DNA of 3,829 nt, taken from assembly GCA_000004985.1 (NCBI GenBank), contig GG739205.1, one strand, 5' to 3'. This DNA is from Naegleria gruberi. Taxonomy: Eukaryota. The notes under the pieces are model-generated. The model ran no database searches. It worked only from the letters and a program-made list of their open reading frames with translations, and had not been told where the DNA came from. This document shows, in pieces, positions 2 through 3,829 of this stretch (position 1 is the stretch's first letter; every line of letters starts with the position of its first letter). Position numbers and translations under genes: made by a program.

Positions 2-334
2 CCAATTTCAATACTAAAATCATACATGGATTTGGTTAGGAATTTCAAAGATGCTGAGTCCCCATTATTTTCCTTCGAAAACGACAAATTCTTTGATTCA
101 GATGGTATTTCAAAGATACTAAAGAATGCAGTGGGTATAGTAGATCAAGGCGTAACAGTCTCAGGTCACAGCCTTAGAATAGGTGCTATCACAGAAGGAC
201 TCAGAAAGGGTATGTCTACAACTGATCTAATGGTCGGTGCAAGACATAAAAAGGAAAAAAGTTTATTTCCTTACCTTAGATCTGAAGGCCTAGCTGGCAA
301 GAATTTCACTAACACTCTATTTTCTCTGGACTAA
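2..334 (+). CDS. 3' (C-terminal) part of a tyrosine site-specific recombinase (phage-integrase family catalytic domain). It is 5'-incomplete: the frame is open back to the window edge at position 2, and the first in-frame ATG is at 26. The stop is TAA at 332-334.
   Basis: The translation contains SGHSLRIGAIT, with the box II His-x-x-Arg at H48/R51 of the 102-aa ORF. H74 sits 23 residues after R51, which is the usual His/Trp III position. The candidate catalytic Y83 lies in PYLRS, 9 residues after H74 and 32 after R51. This R-to-H-to-Y spacing matches XerD-like tyrosine recombinases. The frame upstream of the ATG (PISILKSY) is open to position 2 and stays homologous to the region upstream of ORF2. 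GC is about 40% here against about 20% in the flanks. Confidence 0.7.
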   Translation, partial: PISILKSYMDLVRNFKDAESPLFSFENDKFFDSDGISKILKNAVGIVDQGVTVSGHSLRIGAITEGLRKGMSTTDLMVGARHKKEKSLFPYLRSEGLAGKNFTNTLFSLD

Positions 335-382
335 CCCATTGGTTTATCAACGAAATTCTTTATTGTTTTATTTGGAGAAATA
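334..382 (+). repeat. Direct repeat A1, 49 bp: ACCCATTGGTTTATCAACGAAATTCTTTATTGTTTTATTTGGAGAAATA. It is a perfect copy of 1009-1057.
   Basis: I compared the two copies by eye and they match 49/49. The first base is the last base of ORF1's TAA stop. Flanking sequence diverges immediately on both sides (…CTA|A vs …TCT|A on the left, TGG vs AAC on the right). Confidence 0.9.
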
Positions 383-461
383 TGGCTAGTTGCGAGGAAC
401 GATGCAACGTTAGTATTTCGACAAATTGTAAACAATAAAATTGAGTTGATAAATAATTTTT

Positions 462-532
462 ATGCTCAAAAAAATTAAGAAACATGGTAAACACACCAAG
501 CAAAATCATTGCTGACCCACCCACCCATTCCC
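462..532 (+). repeat. C-element copy 1. It has a 5' ATGCTCAAAAAAA box, a variable middle, and a 3' C-rich end CCCACCCACCCATTCCC. The opposite strand of that end reads GGGAATGGGTGGGTGGG, a four-tract G-quadruplex motif.
   Basis: It shares both of its ends with 1581-1643 and with 3581-3625 (minus strand). It lies 80 bp to the right of A1. It is followed by TTAATTTCATC and then an 8-3-8 palindrome AAGAATTC-CTT-GAATTCTT (544-562). Confidence 0.75.
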
Positions 533-836
533 TTAATTTCATCAAGAATTCCTTGAATTCTTTCAAATAGTCCTTCACTCCTTGAGTGTTTTTTCCTATT
601 TGTCTTTTAGTTTGATCTTGGTAAGTGATCCTTCTAAGGATGCAGGATTTGTATTACCTTGTGATACAATAATTTTTATTTCTAACTAACATCATTTGAA
701 TAATTCGAAATATGCTCGTAAAGTAAGCCAGATTTATTTTTTCAAAAAATATTTCTGATGGAAATTACCAGGCATTTTTTTACAAGCAATTCACTAGTTA
801 AAATAGAGAACTTTAATGGATTGGAGTTTTTACCGA

Positions 837-861
837 TTTTTTCCTGCAATGCAGGTTTTTT
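837..861. other. Short GC hairpin CCTGC-aat-GCAGG (843-855) flanked by T6 on both sides. It looks like a weak bidirectional terminator.
   Basis: The sequence is TTTTTT-CCTGCAATGCAGG-TTTTTT. The stem is only 5 bp with a 3-nt loop. Confidence 0.3.
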
Positions 862-1008
862 ATAGGGGAGTTGTTCTACTTCAATCTCGATTTTGTAAAC
901 AACTTTATTAACTCGGGACAATGCTGAATAAAGTCAATGACCTAAAAGGCAACATTTCCGAGCAACATACCTCATCCTTTGGATGAAGAATATGTTGAGT
1001 GAGCTTCT

Positions 1009-1057
1009 ACCCATTGGTTTATCAACGAAATTCTTTATTGTTTTATTTGGAGAAATA
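1009..1057 (+). repeat. Direct repeat A2, 49 bp, a perfect copy of 334-382. Its last two bases are part of the in-frame TAA (1056-1058) that truncates the ORF2 homology.
   Basis: It is identical over 49 bp to 334-382. It lies 64 bp upstream of the ORF2 ATG. Recombinase-homologous coding sequence begins 1 bp after it, at 1059. Confidence 0.9.
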
Positions 1058-1121
1058 AACTCCTATTGAACCATATCGAGGAAATAAGAAATACTGTCCA
1101 GTTTATAACCTTAGAAGATAC

Positions 1122-1430
1122 ATGGACTATGTTAAACATATTAAGGAAGACGATTCTCCATTATTTTCGTTGATGTTTGATGAATATTTCACTCCTACTC
1201 AAATTTCTAATATTATTTCAAGCTCCATGAGCTCTATTGGTGTTCAAAACACTTCAGGCCATAGCCTTCGTATAAGTGCAGCTACTGAGCTGGCTTCTAA
1301 GGGTGTGTCTCAATCTGTGATTGAGACTGCTGGTAATTGGGTGCCTAATTCAAAAGCTAGATTGAGATATCAACGTAGAATTGGCCTAGCTACTCATGGT
1401 TTAACTACTTCTATTATGAGAACTGATTAA
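1122..1430 (+). CDS. Second, diverged paralogous copy of the tyrosine-recombinase C-terminal catalytic segment (102 codons, TAA stop at 1428-1430). It appears 5'-truncated: protein-level homology to ORF1 continues upstream to about 1059 and is ended by an in-frame TAA at 1056-1058. It may be a gene fragment or pseudogene, or a terminal exon.
   Basis: The translation contains SGHSLRISAATELASKGVSQSVIETAGNWVPNSKARLRYQRR. This gives H47-x-x-R50, then W73 at the His/Trp position 23 residues after the Arg (Trp occupies this position in Cre, Flp and many eukaryotic YRs). Y83 follows 10 residues later in the motif RLRYQR. The ORF is collinear with ORF1 over all 102 residues at roughly 36% identity and ends on the same C-terminal ...D. 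The upstream in-frame translation CPVYNLRRYMDYV aligns with ORF1's PISILKSYMDLV. The box I Arg and Lys regions that should lie further N-terminal are not present before the stop. Confidence 0.55.
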   Translation: MDYVKHIKEDDSPLFSLMFDEYFTPTQISNIISSSMSSIGVQNTSGHSLRISAATELASKGVSQSVIETAGNWVPNSKARLRYQRRIGLATHGLTTSIMRTD

Positions 1431-1458
1431 CTATATATATTTATTATTTACTAAGGAC

Positions 1459-1510
1459 TAATCCATTTGTCTTAATTTATTATTTTATTATTTTGTGATT
1501 TTAAAAACAT
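1459..1510 (+). repeat. Direct repeat B1, 52 bp: TAATCCATTTGTCTTAATTTATTATTTTATTATTTTGTGATTTTAAAAACAT. It is a perfect copy of 2052-2103.
   Basis: It matches 2052-2103 at 52/52. It begins 28 bp after the ORF2 stop. It resembles the A repeat at roughly 60-65% identity (CCATTGGTTTATCAA vs CCATTTGTCTTAATT, and TTTATTGTTTTATTTGG vs TTTATTATTTTGTGATT), which suggests a diverged homologue. Confidence 0.9.
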
Positions 1511-1580
1511 GGGAGTTCTGAACATGGTGAAGAACTAGTGTGTTTTTATACAAAATTATTAAAATATTATTTTAAAAATT

Positions 1581-1643
1581 ATGCTCAAAAAATAGTCTCA
1601 ACATCATGTCATCATTAAGGCAAAGTCCCACCCATACCCACCC
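1581..1643 (+). repeat. C-element copy 2. It starts ATGCTCAAAAAA and ends TCCCACCCATACCCACCC. The complement of that end is GGGTGGGTATGGGTGGG, a G4 motif with loops of 1, 3 and 1 nt.
   Basis: The 5' box and 3' C-rich end are the same as in copy 1, and TTAATT follows in both. It lies 70 bp to the right of B1. This mirrors the A1-to-C1 arrangement. Confidence 0.75.
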
Positions 1644-1971
1644 TTAATTAGTATTTACAATTTTTCAGCCTTTATTTCGCTCATTAGCACCCAGTAAGTG
1701 GGCTAATTTCAGAGTGCGGCTGTGTACATTCAAGATGTGCAATTTTTACATTTATTCACTAACTTATTTTTTGGATGACAGTTTCTAATAGATTCGAATC
1801 ATTTTATTTTTCATTCCATTTGTTTCAGAAAATTCATATAGATTTTTATATATTAATGGTGATTTTAGGAACAGGTTTTACAATTTATTCACATACTCTA
1901 TGTTTTTTCTTATCTTTAGCTTCAAAACTATCGATAAGTTTTTCATAATTTTGAGACTTTAATTTCTAGGG

Positions 1972-2008
1972 ACCTGCTAAATAAAGATTTATATCCTTTA
2001 AAGCAGGT
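1972..2008. other. Stem-loop with a 7-bp stem ACCTGCT/AGCAGGT and a 23-nt AT-rich loop. The 5' arm is part of the motif GGACCTGCTAAATAAAG, which recurs inverted at 3000-3017 as GGACCTGCTGAATAAAGC on the minus strand.
   Basis: The inverted repeat is read directly. The second motif copy matches at 17/18. Both contain AATAAA. Confidence 0.3.
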
Positions 2009-2051
2009 TCCAAGGTTGATTCACCATATGGTGTCTCAATCCTTGAGCTTT

Positions 2052-2103
2052 TAATCCATTTGTCTTAATTTATTATTTTATTATTTTGTGATTTTAAAAA
2101 CAT
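2052..2103 (+). repeat. Direct repeat B2, 52 bp, a perfect copy of 1459-1510.
   Basis: It is identical over 52 bp. Its left flank (CTTGAGCTTT|TA) resembles the left flank of A2 (TTGAGTGAGCTTCT|A). This indicates that the A1..A2 and B1..B2 units are homologous as whole units. Confidence 0.9.
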
Positions 2104-2900
2104 ATAATTTGAAAAATTTATCAAGTGTTGTAGTTAAAATTTAATTTGAGTGTAATAAATCTTTATATGAAAAGCTATAAAAAGTACTTTCTTTATTAGA
2201 GATCAAGTTATCGGCGTTAATTGTCTTAAAAATCAATGTTGTTAAACAACTTCAATCATATTTATTAGAATCTTGATGATACAATTTTTTAGACATACCA
2301 TGTTTACCATTTAATATCGAGTAGTAAAAATATGTAAATTAAAAAAAGGAAAAAATGTTGAGTTTTGGTATTTTTTTAAAAAATGTTTTTTTGAAAAAAA
2401 TTTCGATAAAAACTAGAAATTTATTAGTATTTCAATGAAAAATACGAATTTTCATACATGCGTTGGTGGGATATGTTTGTCATATTAGATATTTAATAAA
2501 AATAAAATAAAAATTTTCGCATGTAAATATATATATATATATATACATCCGAAAAAATTTTTGTTGAAAGTTGGTTTATAAGATGGTGGTTAAATTGGTT
2601 TATCTGAAAAATCATTTAAAAGTGATTTAAATATAAAGATAATGAAATTAATTGAAAATTAAGAAGCTAAAATAAATTTTCAAAAATTTATCGATTTGAA
2701 ATTTAGAAAAGCTTAACAAAGTAATATATAAAATATAAAAAACCATTAATTTTTAAAAATCTTCTAAAGTTGGTATTATCATTATGAAGATTATTGATTG
2801 GAAGTAATAATCTTTATGGTAAATCCAAAGAAAATGAATTCAAAGAAAGAACAAACTTTCTAAAAATATTACAAAAACACTGTTATGTTTCTTAAAAGAA
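2104..2900. repeat. Low-complexity A/T homopolymer-rich tract. It contains many A5-8 and T5-8 runs and a reiterated AAAAAATGTT-like motif at 2345-2400. No ORFs are present.
   Basis: Composition is roughly 85% A+T. Stop codons are dense in all six frames. It follows repeat B2 immediately. Confidence 0.6.
2527..2545. repeat. (AT)n dinucleotide microsatellite of about 9.5 units.
   Basis: The sequence is atatatatatatatatata. A shorter (TA)4 run lies at 1433-1440. Confidence 0.9.
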
Positions 2901-3111
2901 AACCAACAATAAATAAACTAATAGATATAAAGCTCACACTACAACTTCTACCTATTCTTAGGTAGTTTGTAGCCTGGTTACTGCTGTTTTTAGGCATTAA
3001 GCTTTATTCAGCAGGTCCAGAAATTAAATAAACTAATCAATACAATCATACTATGATTTCTTAACAAAAAGCAAAAACTAAACTAAATTAAAGCAATCTG
3101 ACAATAAACCA

Positions 3112-3134
3112 AGTTGTTTTTTGGAGAAACAACT
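3112..3134. other. Hairpin with an 8-bp stem (AGTTGTTT / AAACAACT) and a 7-nt loop TTTGGAG. The loop and 3' side resemble the right end of the A repeat plus A2's flank (TTGTTTTATTTGGAGAAATAAACTCC vs TTGTTTTTTGGAGAAACAACTCCC).
   Basis: The inverted repeat is read directly from the sequence. The similarity to A2 and its flank is about 21/26 after allowing one 2-bp indel. Confidence 0.35.
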
Positions 3135-3141
3135 CCCATAT

Positions 3142-3170
3142 AAAAAAACCTACTCTTGTAGGAAAAAAAA
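3142..3170. other. Short hairpin CCTAC-tctt-GTAGG (3149-3162) flanked by A7 and A8. Its architecture and stem sequence resemble the 843-855 hairpin (CCTRC...GYAGG).
   Basis: The sequence is AAAAAAA-CCTACTCTTGTAGG-AAAAAAAA. The 13-mer AAAAAACCTACTC recurs at 3198-3210. Confidence 0.3.
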
Positions 3171-3273
3171 TCGGTAAAAACCAAAAAGTTAAGAATTAAA
3201 AAACCTACTCAACCGTCTTGACACTTACGAATCAAAACGAGAATGAGAAAAGAGGTATGTTCAGTACATATTG

Positions 3274-3309
3274 CCTTACTAATAGTAAGGGAAAGGTATC
3301 AGATACCTT
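3274..3309. promoter_or_regulatory. Two adjacent perfect 17-bp palindromes: CCTTACTA-A-TAGTAAGG (3274-3290) and AAGGTATC-A-GATACCTT (3293-3309). Each has 8-bp arms and a 1-bp centre. Candidate dimeric protein-binding sites.
   Basis: Both are perfect inverted repeats when read by eye. They are separated by 2 bp. Both arms carry CCTT/AAGG ends. They lie within about 30 bp of the phased direct repeats at 3335-3371. Confidence 0.5.
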
Positions 3310-3334
3310 CTAATCAACATAAAATTGATCTGTC

Positions 3335-3371
3335 GGTTTTAGATCACCAACAATTGGTTTTAGATCACCAA
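3335..3371. repeat. Two perfect 16-bp direct repeats, GGTTTTAGATCACCAA, at 3335-3350 and 3356-3371. The 21-bp phasing equals two helical turns, which is iteron-like.
   Basis: The two copies match exactly. Each contains GATC. They lie directly downstream of the twin palindromes. Confidence 0.8.
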
Positions 3372-3580
3372 TCATGATAAAAAACATCAATAAATGATGT
3401 CAAATATCAAATAATAATACAAAGATAAAAAGATGATAACAATCATCTTTCAATAATACAAATAGAGTGAAATCTTTCAATCAATTGAGAAAATATTTGA
3501 GGATTGATTAAAAAATCACATTCTAAAGTATTAAGGACAAAGGTTAGAACCTTTGATTTGAATAAACTAATAATAATAGA

Positions 3581-3625
3581 GGGTGGGCAAGGGTGGGACC
3601 ATAGTATGACAATTTTTTTGAGCAT
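3581..3625 (-). repeat. C-element copy 3, in inverted orientation. The minus strand reads ATGCTCAAAAAAATTGTCATACTATGGTCCCACCCTTGCCCACCC. The plus strand carries GGGTGGGCAAGGGTGGG, a G4 motif.
   Basis: It has the same 12-bp 5' box and the same CCCACCC-N3-CCCACCC end, with a shorter middle. It is followed on the minus strand by an 8-2-8 palindrome (plus strand 3538-3555, CAAAGGTT-AG-AACCTTTG). Confidence 0.7.
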
Positions 3626-3681
3626 ACTTTCTATTATTAGTTTATTCAATTGTTGTTTTCAAGAAACACTACTTTATCTCA

Positions 3682-3829
3682 GTAAACTTCGATAAGAACA
3701 GAAATATCAAAGAATGTGGAAGAGATAAGGTAGTTTAAACCCTTCTCAGCGTAAGAACTTGTAATACTACTCAATCCGCTTCTATGGAATAGGTTGAAAA
3801 ATAGCAAAAGATAAACGCCACCAATATTT
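3682..3829 (-). CDS. Possible 3' end of a minus-strand gene that runs off the right edge of the window. There are 49 open codons ending in TGA (plus-strand 3679-3681). The product is unknown.
   Basis: An open 49-codon stretch is unusual in this stop-rich AT background. Local G+C is about 38%, higher than the surrounding non-coding DNA. The translation is ...NIGGVYLLLFFNLFHRSGLSSITSSYAEKGLNYLISSTFFDISVLIEVY*. I recognise no motif in it. Confidence 0.2.

What the first reader, a model, noticed from the sequence alone, without database searches (positions are those of the whole stretch)
3240..3380. Dense cluster of protein-binding-site-like symmetry: twin 17-bp palindromes plus two helically phased 16-bp direct repeats
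Two perfect palindromes with 8-bp arms and single-base centres sit 2 bp apart (3274-3290 and 3293-3309). Two perfect copies of GGTTTTAGATCACCAA follow at a 21-bp period (3335-3371), each containing GATC. Perfect symmetry of this length is unlikely by chance in 3.8 kb. The combination of dyad sites and phased iterons resembles replication-origin, partition or operator architecture, or the sub-terminal binding sites of a mobile element. The inverted third C element and its 8-2-8 palindrome lie 170-250 bp further right, and the possible gene at the right edge lies beyond that.
Basis: seen in the sequence. Interest (0 to 1): 0.5.

Follow-up and report, generated by a model that had tools for sequence, protein, structure and literature searches.

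The report
Stem-loop array in a Naegleria retrotransposon tail
The twin palindromes and the repeated 16-mer are real and non-random, but they are part of a run of short hairpin-forming sequences in the non-coding tail of a decayed tyrosine-recombinase retrotransposon of the amoeba Naegleria gruberi, not a replication origin or operator.

Summary
There are perfect 8-1-8 palindromes at 3274-3290 and 3293-3309, and two exact copies of GGTTTTAGATCACCAA 21 bp apart. Both features are far beyond chance.

The window is a whole 3829-bp Naegleria gruberi scaffold. It consists of the 3' parts of three copies of a DIRS-order tyrosine-recombinase (YR) retrotransposon. Relatives encode gag, then RT/RNase H, then YR. 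Two copies show exact "split direct repeats" (B1-A2-B2) after the YR stop codon. The third copy is inverted, and the finding lies in its non-coding A-type segment.

On that copy's sense (minus) strand, 3628->3256 folds into about 12 consecutive hairpins. Six of them abut at 20-22-nt spacing. These six include both palindromes and both 16-mers; each 16-mer is a TTGGT-loop-ACCAA stem-loop. All three A segments fold better than shuffles (z -3.0, -4.7, -7.4). Two hairpins outside the target are kept between copies by compensatory changes, and others recur at matching positions with different stems.

The palindromes share no half-site consensus. There are only two 16-mer copies, and there is no Rep or Par context. 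The best reading is single-strand (RNA or cDNA) structure in a retroelement terminal repeat, exaggerated in this copy. A neutral by-product is a serious rival. No other copy of the target itself could be retrieved. Interest is low to moderate.

The parts
3274..3290 (-). Palindrome P1, CCTTACTA-A-TAGTAAGG (8-1-8); 7-bp stem with a 3-nt loop when single-stranded
3293..3309 (-). Palindrome P2, AAGGTATC-A-GATACCTT (8-1-8); the hairpin spans 3310->3292 with one extra G-U pair on the minus strand
3256..3270 (-). Weaker hairpin TATGT-ACTGA-ACATA (5-5-5) abutting P1
3312..3330 (-). Hairpin GATCAAT-TTTAT-GTTGATT (7 pairs, 2 of them G-U, so it forms only on the minus strand); contains the third GATC
3332..3351 (-). 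Direct-repeat unit 1 (16-mer at 3335-3350), a stem-loop on the minus strand: GTTGGT-GATCTAAA-ACCGAC. One pair is G-U on the minus strand and a C.A mismatch on the plus strand.
3352..3373 (-). Direct-repeat unit 2 (16-mer at 3356-3371), a stem-loop on the minus strand: GATTGGT-GATCTAAA-ACCAATT. The outer stem pairs come from the flanks and differ from unit 1 but still pair (G-C in unit 1, A-T in unit 2).
3383..3401 (-). Hairpin GACATCA-TTTAT-TGATGTT
3428..3451 (-). Perfect 9-4-9 palindrome AAAGATGAT-AACA-ATCATCTTT (3429-3450), extended to a 10-pair hairpin
3463..3525 (-). 63-nt hairpin with 21 pairs
3538..3555 (-). Perfect 8-2-8 palindrome just downstream (in sense orientation) of the C element. 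It is the positional counterpart of the copy-1 palindrome at 544-562 and differs from it by three compensatory pair changes.
3581..3625 (-). Conserved A-segment motifs of copy 3: ATGCTCAAAAAAA (3625->3613) and C element GTCCCACCCTTGCCCACCC (3599->3581). An 18-bp perfect inverted repeat (3558-3575 / 3632-3649) encloses them.
2884..3660 (-). Copy 3 (El3): the A-type non-coding segment plus a B-like terminal repeat (about 2935->2884). It is homologous to copy 1 (383-1057): 471 identical of 642 aligned columns, with many indels. The target lies inside it.
3149..3181 (-). Conserved 17-mer GTTTTTACCGATTTTTT (3181->3165; identical to 826-842) followed by a T-flanked hairpin CCTAC-AAGA-GTAGG (3162->3149). 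Copy 1 has CCTGC-AAT-GCAGG at 844-856, one compensatory pair change.
2..1057 (+). Copy 1 (El1): YR C-terminus 2-334 (99% identical to N. gruberi P0005), B1 334-382, A2 383-1008, B2 1009-1057 (B1 = B2, 49 nt, 100%)
1058..2103 (+). Copy 2 (El2): 5'-truncated YR 1058-1430 (P0001; 95% identical to P0080), B1' 1459-1510, A2' 1511-2051, B2' 2052-2103 (B1' = B2', 52 nt, 100%)

Best explanation
The feature is the densest part of a run of about 12 short stem-loop-forming sequences (window 3628->3256, read on the minus strand). It lies in the non-coding 'A-type' terminal-repeat segment of a third, inverted and incomplete copy of a Naegleria gruberi DIRS-order tyrosine-recombinase retrotransposon. That element has a PAT-like layout: ...pol-YR-B1-A2-B2.

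Shown:
- the organism and the element context;
- the exact palindromes and repeats;
- each 16-mer unit is itself a hairpin, and six hairpins abut at 20-22-nt spacing;
- all three A segments are more structured than shuffles;
- two other hairpins of the A segment are kept between copies by compensatory substitutions, and hairpins recur at two further matching positions with different stems.

Inferred: the palindromes act, or acted in the master copy, as secondary structure of the element's single-stranded RNA or cDNA. A plausible role is as cis signals in the terminal redundancy used during reverse transcription, template switching or packaging. They would not be double-stranded binding sites for a dimeric protein. 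The two 16-mers are a duplicated stem-loop, and P1 and P2 are lineage-specific additions in this copy.
For: Identity and context:
- ORF 1122-1430 is N. gruberi protein P0001 (100%) on a 3829-bp contig.
- Window 2-331 is 99% identical to N. gruberi YR P0005.
- In four relatives' contigs the YR directly follows a pol ORF (L003, L004, L005, L047). The L004 pol hits RVT_1 at 1.9e-23, with weak RNase H and Dam-like hits, and L004 has a gag-size ORF upstream.
- Exact direct repeats of 49 and 52 nt bracket about 600-nt segments right after two YR stop codons. This matches the published A1..B1-A2-B2 layout, with internal repeats downstream of YR (PMC4157794, PMC6681497).
- The reverse complement of copy 3 aligns to copy 1 across the A segment.

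Structure:
- The minus strand of 3230-3460 has MFE -60.9 kcal/mol, z = -5.8, and folds as a row of hairpins. The plus strand gives -47.6, z = -4.8.
- 12 hairpins lie in 3628->3256, with successive starts at 3373, 3351, 3330, 3310, 3290 and 3270.
- Several stems need G-U pairs that exist only on the minus strand, the sense strand of this copy.
- Whole A segments on the sense strand give z = -3.0, -4.7 and -7.35. The AT-rich spacer 2101-2500 gives z about +1.4 to -0.9.
- Compensatory changes between copies: three pairs in the post-C-element hairpin and one in the T-flanked hairpin.
- Hairpins with unrelated stems occur at the same positions around AATAAA and just before B2 in all three copies.

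Against a protein-site reading:
- The half-sites of P1, P2, 3429-3450 and 3538-3555 are unrelated.
- Only two 16-mer copies exist.
Against: - The target itself has no conserved counterpart. In the closest copy (El1), P1 and P2 fall in an alignment gap, and El1 501-800 does not fold significantly. Conservation is therefore shown for neighbouring hairpins, not for these.
- No other copy of this sub-region could be retrieved, so covariation cannot be tested on the target.
- Perfect palindromes with 1-nt centres fit dsDNA dyads at least as well as RNA stems.
- The strand preference is small (z -5.8 vs -4.8, and -7.35 vs -7.7 for the whole segment).
- The 5' end (A1) of no element was seen, so the split-direct-repeat assignment is incomplete.
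- One relative (L001) has the A-type motif inverted upstream of a YR fragment. That could also fit an inverted-repeat (Dirs1-like) layout.
- No experiment links hairpins to DIRS/PAT replication, and a literature search found nothing relevant.
Confidence: 0.5

Rival explanations
1. Neutral by-product. The palindromes and the duplicated unit are mutational debris in a dead transposon copy. They would arise from local duplication, slippage, or snap-back/template-switch errors of the reverse transcriptase or the replisome, which create or perfect inverted repeats. They have no function.
For: - P1 and P2 lie in a segment absent from the closest copy, El1.
- The El1 counterpart region is not significantly structured.
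- The elements here are fragmentary and nested.
- Published work describes the N. gruberi DIRS-like copies as few and too full of frameshifts and indels to analyse (PMC3266345).
- A perfect 8-0-8 palindrome also turns up in a relative's tail (L015), which fits a recurrent mutational process.
Against: - Other hairpins of the same segment are maintained between copies by compensatory changes.
- All three A segments are more structured than shuffles, whereas the neighbouring spacer is not.
- The 16-mer cores are 16/16 identical while their 5-nt linkers differ at 3 of 5 positions. The flanking stem pairs differ yet still pair. Neither is expected from a simple recent slippage event.
Confidence: 0.3
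2. Double-stranded protein-binding sites inside the element. These could be promoter or enhancer-type sites of an LTR-like terminal repeat, or sub-terminal sites bound by the element's own recombinase or another factor. The 21-bp spacing would place the two 16-mers on one face of the helix.
For: - Perfect dyads with 1-nt centres and two exact 16-mers 21 bp apart.
- The segment is a terminal repeat, which in full-length copies would also sit at the 5' end, where a promoter is expected (inference from the A1 = A2 layout described in PMC4157794).
Against: - The half-sites of the different palindromes are unrelated, so several different proteins would be needed.
- None has the 11-13-bp arms around a 6-8-bp spacer that is typical of tyrosine-recombinase core sites (established knowledge of lox, FRT and dif).
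- There are only two 16-mers, and each is itself a stem-loop.
- The site lies 300-450 nt from either A/B junction, where recombination would be expected.
Confidence: 0.12
3. Replication origin, partition site or operator of a plasmid, organelle or viral replicon (dyads plus iterons).
For: Only the formal resemblance: dyad symmetry next to two direct repeats in AT-rich DNA.
Against: - The scaffold is N. gruberi DNA composed of retrotransposon tails.
- There is no Rep, Par or repressor ORF.
- There is no similarity to plasmid or phage records.
- Only two repeat copies exist.
- There is no cumulative GC-skew turning point at 3240-3380.
- There is no Rfam match at 3240-3380; the only window hits are three sub-threshold miRNA matches at 2508-2563.
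Confidence: 0.02

Closest known systems
PAT-like elements of the DIRS order (tyrosine-recombinase retrotransposons with split direct repeats A1...B1-A2-B2)
   Same: - A YR gene directly follows a pol ORF in relatives.
- Exact internal and terminal direct repeats lie immediately downstream of YR.
- There is a weak Dam-like methyltransferase signal in pol.
- The target lies in the A2-type repeat.
   Different: - A1 at the 5' end was not seen.
- The methyltransferase hit is below Pfam's cut-off.
- The extra inverted copy of B, the conserved ATGCTCAAAAAA and CCCACCC motifs, and a dense hairpin array in A are not features I could find described for PAT, Ngaro or DIRS elements (my own knowledge).
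Dirs1-like elements (inverted terminal repeats plus an internal complementary region)
   Same: - Same gene set.
- An inverted copy of the terminal B sequence lies soon after YR (343-382 vs 414-453 in El1; 3660-3632 vs 2923-2898 in El3), which recalls an internal complementary region.
- DIRS-1 replicates through single-stranded cDNA (PMC7192593), which makes single-strand structure relevant.
   Different: The defining repeats here are direct and exact (B1 = B2), not two pairs of inverted repeats. No left terminal repeat is available to compare.
Structured R/U5-type leader regions of LTR retroelements and retroviruses (my own knowledge)
   Same: A terminal redundancy carries several stem-loops. 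A poly(A)-signal-like AATAAA sits in a hairpin loop in all three copies.
   Different: A different element class. No primer-binding site or long terminal repeats were identified, and no experimental support exists.
Folded single-strand recombination sites of tyrosine recombinases (integron attC, CTX phage attP(+); my own knowledge)
   Same: A tyrosine recombinase together with a single-stranded DNA intermediate and hairpin-forming imperfect or perfect palindromes.
   Different: Those are bacterial systems, and their stems (about 20-30 bp with extrahelical bases) accommodate two recombinase monomers. Here the stems are 6-9 bp. There is no evidence that the Naegleria YR acts on them.
Plasmid iterons and operator dyads
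   Same: Direct repeats spaced about two helical turns apart next to dyad symmetry.
   Different: Only two repeats, heterogeneous dyads, a eukaryotic retrotransposon context, and no initiator or repressor gene.

Membership tests
DIRS-order (tyrosine-recombinase) retrotransposon | Encodes a tyrosine recombinase instead of an integrase | tested here: met
   Two YR C-termini lie in the window. PF00589 hits at E = 2.2e-5 (24.7 bits, just under the 27.1-bit cut-off). They are 99% and 95% identical to N. gruberi proteins P0005 and P0080, which belong to a family of 302-328-aa YRs.
DIRS-order (tyrosine-recombinase) retrotransposon | Reverse transcriptase/RNase H ORF in the same element | tested here: inconclusive
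   Not present in the window, which holds only 3' parts. In relatives L003, L004, L005 and L047 the YR overlaps the end of a pol ORF by 4 nt. The L004 pol hits RVT_1 at 1.9e-23. N. gruberi P0008 (82% identical to YR1) starts with the pol C-terminal motif.
PAT-like (split direct repeats) | B1 and B2 are identical direct repeats downstream of YR, bracketing A2 | tested here: met
   334-382 = 1009-1057 (49 nt, 100%) and 1459-1510 = 2052-2103 (52 nt, 100%), each starting at or just after a YR stop codon.
PAT-like (split direct repeats) | A1 at the 5' end is identical to A2 | not testable with these tools
   No 5' end is in the window, and N. gruberi scaffolds could not be fetched. L001 shows an A-type start abutting foreign sequence, which is compatible with an element 5' end.
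DIRS group (as opposed to Ngaro/VIPER) | Methyltransferase-like domain in pol | tested here: inconclusive
   PF05869 Dam hit in L004 pol residues 533-594: E = 6.4e-4, 19.9 bits, below the 28.1-bit cut-off.
Dirs1-like | Inverted terminal repeats plus an internal complementary region | tested here: inconclusive
   An imperfect inverted copy of B exists after YR, but the exact repeats are direct and no left end is available.
Iteron-type replication origin | Three or more direct repeats with a consensus, an adjacent initiator gene and an unwinding element | tested here: not met
   Two copies only, even at <=3 mismatches. There is no Rep-like ORF and no plasmid or phage similarity.
Operator array for one dimeric DNA-binding protein | Dyads share a half-site consensus | tested here: not met
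   The half-sites CCTTACTA, AAGGTATC, AAAGATGAT and CAAAGGTT are unrelated.
Tyrosine-recombinase core site (lox/FRT/dif type) | Inverted arms of about 11-13 bp around a 6-8-bp spacer | tested here: not met
   The arms are 8 bp with a 1-bp centre. The definition comes from established knowledge.
Any curated RNA family (Rfam 15) | Covariance-model match | tested here: not met
   The only hits are three sub-threshold miRNA matches at 2508-2563. Nothing matches at 3240-3380.

The most novel reading that the evidence does not exclude
The six abutting stem-loops of about 20 nt (3373->3256), including the twin palindromes and the duplicated 16-mer hairpin, could be a functional module of PAT/DIRS-type elements that works in the single-stranded cDNA. 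It might act as folded-DNA sites recognised by the element's tyrosine recombinase (analogous to integron attC or CTX attP(+)), or as self-priming or second-strand-priming hairpins. That would give a first sequence-level handle on how these retrotransposons complete replication and integration.
Probability: 0.07. Interest if true: 0.65.

Novelty: new member of a known kind. Interest (0 to 1): 0.22.

Why it matters
For the scan, this removes a false lead: there is no origin, partition site or operator here. The window is a small Naegleria gruberi scaffold built from nested tails of tyrosine-recombinase retrotransposons.

For transposon biology the value is modest. N. gruberi DIRS-like elements were previously listed as too degenerate to analyse and of uncertain presence (PMC3266345). 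This window plus a few related contigs shows several features:
- a gag-pol-YR order;
- exact split direct repeats;
- conserved tail motifs;
- a structured terminal repeat, with hairpins kept by compensatory change.

Such structure is relevant because DIRS-1 replicates through single-stranded cDNA (PMC7192593). If confirmed on many copies, it would point to testable cis elements for a poorly understood retrotransposition mechanism.

Tried and rejected
- Plasmid and phage similarity (blastn 'distant', whole window): no match.
- tRNA/tmRNA and Rfam searches: nothing relevant.
- Fetching N. gruberi scaffolds that encode the full-length YRs P0005, P0008, P0012 and P0007: not on record. Genomic copy number and the 5' ends therefore could not be examined.
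- Other relatives' contigs (L003, L004, L005, L047) end within 80 nt after the YR stop, so they give no A segment. L015, L001 and L002 give at most about 140 nt of tail. L016 carries a rearranged YR with unrelated downstream sequence.
- Exact look-up of nine spurious ORFs across the region: none is in the 15-billion-protein collection.
- Metagenome scan for the tandem 16-mer: 0 hits. A scan for the family motif ATGCTCAAAAAA...CCCACCCNNNCCC gave 9 hits, all unrelated sequences of 40-55% GC.
- The single 16-mer in viral contigs gave 30 scattered single hits, which is chance background.
- The right-edge minus-strand ORF as a third recombinase: no similarity.
- A GATC/Dam connection (Dam-like domain in pol, GATC in each repeat): rejected. 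GATC is at expectation, and the DIRS methyltransferase domain is considered inactive (PMC4738411).
- A three-way RNAalifold of the pre-B2 hairpins failed because the stems are not alignable, so that conservation rests on per-sequence folds.
- Similarity of the 16-mer to the 3' end of the B repeat (GTGATTTTAAAAACA): judged too weak, needing more than 3 mismatches or gaps.
- The third homologous-protein search, the representative-library search and structure prediction were not used, because none bears on a non-coding feature.

Full report
**1. Observation**

- CCTTACTA-A-TAGTAAGG lies at 3274-3290.
- AAGGTATC-A-GATACCTT lies at 3293-3309, 2 bp further on.
- Two exact copies of GGTTTTAGATCACCAA lie at 3335-3350 and 3356-3371, 21 bp start-to-start, each with GATC.

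This is not chance.
- Perfect palindromes with arms >=8 bp, loops <=4 nt and at least two G/C per arm number 6 in the window against 0.32 expected. None of 1000 dinucleotide shuffles reaches 6.
- In 2880-3700 there are 4 against 0.065 expected, and no shuffle gave two such palindromes within 10 bp.
- The 16-mer has two matches at <=3 mismatches against 0.12 expected, and there is no third copy.

Some qualifications apply.
- Only two repeat units exist. Their 5-nt linkers differ at 3 of 5 positions, and Tandem Repeats Finder calls no array there.
- GATC is at expectation in the window: 9 observed against about 10 expected.

**2. What the window is**

ORF 1122-1430 is 100% identical to a 'predicted protein' of Naegleria gruberi whose only contig is 3829 bp long. 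The window is therefore a complete small scaffold of that amoeboflagellate. It has no match in the plasmid or phage collections, no tRNA and no meaningful Rfam hit.

It carries two C-terminal halves of tyrosine recombinases.
- Window 2-334 is 99% identical to N. gruberi P0005.
- Window 1058-1430 gives a Phage_integrase hit at E = 2.2e-5, just under Pfam's cut-off, and is 95% identical to N. gruberi P0080.

A profile of these fragments finds a small family of 302-328-aa recombinases in N. gruberi, N. fowleri and a few metagenome or read-archive contigs.

In the four related contigs that extend upstream (L003, L004, L005, L047), the recombinase gene overlaps by 4 nt the end of a homologous pol ORF.
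- In L004 this pol ORF hits RVT_1 at 1.9e-23, with weak RNase H-like and Dam-like methyltransferase hits.
- L004 also has a gag-size ORF of at least 304 aa upstream.
- N. gruberi P0008, 82% identical to the window's first recombinase, even begins with the pol C-terminal motif.

The family is therefore a tyrosine-recombinase retrotransposon of the DIRS order. A 2011 survey counted 7 DIRS-like copies in N. gruberi. [quoted passage not shown]

**3. Architecture**

Directly after each recombinase stop codon comes an exact direct repeat pair.
- 334-382 = 1009-1057 (49 nt).
- 1459-1510 = 2052-2103 (52 nt).

Each pair brackets a non-coding segment of 540-630 nt. This is the B1-A2-B2 arrangement of 'split direct repeats' that defines PAT-like, Ngaro and VIPER elements, in which the internal repeats lie downstream of YR (PMC4157794; PMC6681497).

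The bracketed A-type segments share two motifs: ATGCTCAAAAAA(A) and a C-rich motif CCCACCCNNNCCC.

The start of B (GGACTAAYCCATTKGT) is conserved after the stop codon in both window copies and, in the relatives L001, L002 and L015, exactly or with one or two changes.

Copy 1 ends at 1057, exactly where homology of copy 2 to the intact N. gruberi protein P0080 begins. Copy 1 thus abuts or is nested in the recombinase gene of copy 2.

Positions 2104-2883 form a 19%-GC spacer.

The rest of the window, read on the minus strand, is a third copy of the A-type segment plus a B-like end. It aligns to copy 1 with 471 identities in 642 aligned columns and many indels. It includes an identical 17-mer (826-842 / 3181-3165) and the ATGCTC and C-element motifs (3625->3581).

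The finding lies inside this third A-type segment, 200-350 nt downstream (in sense orientation) of the C element.

The 'possible gene' at the right edge has no similarity to the recombinases.

**4. Anatomy of the feature**

Folded as a single strand, the sense (minus) strand of 3230-3460 forms a row of hairpins. Its MFE is -60.9 kcal/mol against -37.7 for shuffles (z = -5.8). The plus strand gives -47.6 (z = -4.8).

Over 3230-3670 there are 12 hairpins.
- Six of them abut one another with starts at 3373, 3351, 3330, 3310, 3290 and 3270, a spacing of 20-22 nt.
- These six are: the two 16-mer units, a GATCAAT/GTTGATT hairpin, P2, P1 and a weaker 5-bp stem.
- Each 16-mer unit is a TTGGT-GATCTAAA-ACCAA stem-loop lengthened by its flanks. 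The flanking pairs differ between the two units but still pair (outermost G-C versus A-T). One pair of unit 1 is G-U on the minus strand but C.A on the plus strand.

So the 'iterons' are a duplicated stem-loop and the 'twin dyads' are two more stem-loops of the same array.

The half-sites of the perfect palindromes (CCTTACTA, AAGGTATC, AAAGATGAT, CAAAGGTT) are unrelated. This argues against repeated binding sites for one dimeric protein.

**5. Is structure a property of the element?**

All three A-type segments fold better than dinucleotide shuffles on the sense strand (z = -3.0, -4.7, -7.35). The AT-rich spacer at 2101-2500 does not (z +1.4 to -0.9).

Several hairpins recur at matching positions in different copies with different stem sequences.
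- Hairpin just after the C element: copy 1 has AAGAATTC-CTT-GAATTCTT at 544-562 and copy 3 has CAAAGGTT-CT-AACCTTTG at 3555->3538. There are three compensatory pair changes.
- T-flanked hairpin after the shared 17-mer: CCTGC/GCAGG against CCTAC/GTAGG, one compensatory change.
- Hairpin holding a conserved AATAAA in its loop, in all three copies.
- Two-tier hairpin immediately before 'TGAGCTT' and B2, in all three copies, with unrelated stems. MAFFT/RNAalifold could not align this one.

This supports selection for single-strand secondary structure in the terminal repeat.

The same cannot be shown for the target itself.
- In the alignment to copy 1, P1 and P2 fall in a gap and the 16-mer units align only weakly.
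- Copy 1 positions 501-800 do not fold significantly.
- The target hairpins are therefore specific to the lineage of copy 3.

**6. Explanation and rivals**

Best supported (about 0.5): the feature is part of a structured, non-coding terminal-repeat segment of a retrotransposon.
- The palindromes matter as stems of the element's RNA or single-stranded cDNA.
- This copy carries lineage-specific extra stem-loops, including one duplicated unit.
- Single-strand structure is plausible for this class because DIRS-1 amplifies through linear single-stranded cDNA and needs internal complementarity (PMC7192593).
- The specific role (template switching, packaging, priming) is inference.

Main rival (about 0.3): neutral debris from duplication or template-switch errors in a dead copy. 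This is consistent with the absence of the target from copy 1.

Minor rivals:
- Double-stranded protein sites, either promoter/enhancer elements of an LTR-like repeat or recombinase sub-terminal sites (about 0.12).
No Rep, Par or repressor gene and no plasmid or phage similarity were found, and there are only two repeats.

The palindromes also do not have the geometry of lox/FRT/dif-type recombinase core sites.

**7. Limits**

- No other copy of the target region could be obtained. N. gruberi scaffolds were not retrievable.
- Relatives' contigs stop right after the recombinase gene.
- Both metagenome scans found no homologue.
- Single 16-mer hits in viral contigs are chance.
- The 5' repeat A1 was not seen, and one relative (L001) shows the A-type motif inverted upstream of a recombinase fragment. 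The assignment to the PAT-like rather than the Dirs1-like layout is therefore probable, not proven.

**8. Verdict**

It is a new member of a known kind, the non-coding repeat region of a DIRS-order retrotransposon. The hairpin density is unusual but not demonstrably functional. Interest is 0.22.

Noticed in passing
window 334-382 = 1009-1057; 1459-1510 = 2052-2103: Two pairs of exact direct repeats (49 and 52 nt), each beginning at or just after a recombinase stop codon and bracketing about 600 nt. This is the split-direct-repeat (B1-A2-B2) signature of PAT/Ngaro-type retrotransposons, which I could not find described for Naegleria.
   Followed up: partly
window 1057/1058; L001 about 60-130; L002 about 640-720: Elements interrupt each other's recombinase genes. 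The copy-1 3' end abuts the 5'-truncated copy-2 YR. In L001 an inverted A-type start abuts another truncated YR. In L002 an ORF I read from its CxxC...H...C motif as LINE-like (no Pfam hit) abuts a near-identical copy of YR2. This may indicate nested insertion or self-targeting.
   Followed up: partly
window 462-474 / 516-532; 1581-1592 / 1625-1643; 3625-3613 / 3599-3581 (minus): ATGCTCAAAAAA(A) followed 16-46 nt later by CCCACCCNNNCCC is conserved in all three A-type segments although the surrounding sequence has diverged. L001 has the ATGCTC motif followed by a weaker C-rich stretch. The function is unknown; it could be a transcription or translation start, or a primer or recognition site.
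   Followed up: partly
window 326-350, 1451-1475; L001 721-740; L002 1059-1078; L015 568-586: GGACTAAYCCATTKGT (the start of the B repeat) is conserved right after the YR stop codon in copies whose recombinases are only 40-70% identical: exact in the window copies and L015, with one or two changes in L001 and L002. It is a candidate cis site at the YR/B junction.
   Followed up: partly
window 905-965, 1965-2025, 3030-2965 (minus): A conserved TGCTGAATAAAG (TGCTAAATAAAG in copy 2; AATAAA invariant) sits in the loop of a hairpin in all three copies, with different right-arm sequences. It may be a structured polyadenylation region.
   Followed up: partly
window 955-1015, 2000-2058, 2985-2925 (minus): A two-tier hairpin with unrelated stem sequences lies immediately upstream of 'TGAGCTT' and the B2 repeat in all three copies. 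Position and shape are kept while the sequence is not.
   Followed up: partly
window 3558-3575 / 3632-3649: An 18-bp perfect inverted repeat encloses the copy-3 ATGCTC motif and C element (56-nt loop). In copy 1 a 40-nt, 70% inverted copy of B (343-382 / 414-453) sits upstream of the motifs instead.
   Followed up: no
window 2104-2883, especially 2504-2565: A 19%-GC spacer lies between the tails of copy 2 and copy 3. It contains an (AT)9 microsatellite flanked by a 33-nt imperfect inverted repeat, which is the source of the only (sub-threshold miRNA) Rfam hits.
   Followed up: no
window 1307-1327; L001 about 591-612: A perfect 9-3-9 palindrome lies inside the YR2 coding sequence (codons for SQ..IE). 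The homologous codons in L001 are also palindromic (7-bp arms). This is probably a coding coincidence preserved by protein conservation.
   Followed up: partly
L015 633-648: A perfect 8-0-8 palindrome ATTATTGTACAATAAT lies in the tail of a related element from a metagenome. Perfect palindromes thus recur in this family's post-YR regions.
   Followed up: no
L004 pol ORF residues 533-594 (L004 about 2406-2591): A sub-threshold Dam-like N6-adenine methyltransferase hit (E = 6.4e-4) lies between the RNase H-like region and the pol C-terminus. It is consistent with the (reportedly inactive) methyltransferase domain of DIRS/PAT elements.
   Followed up: partly
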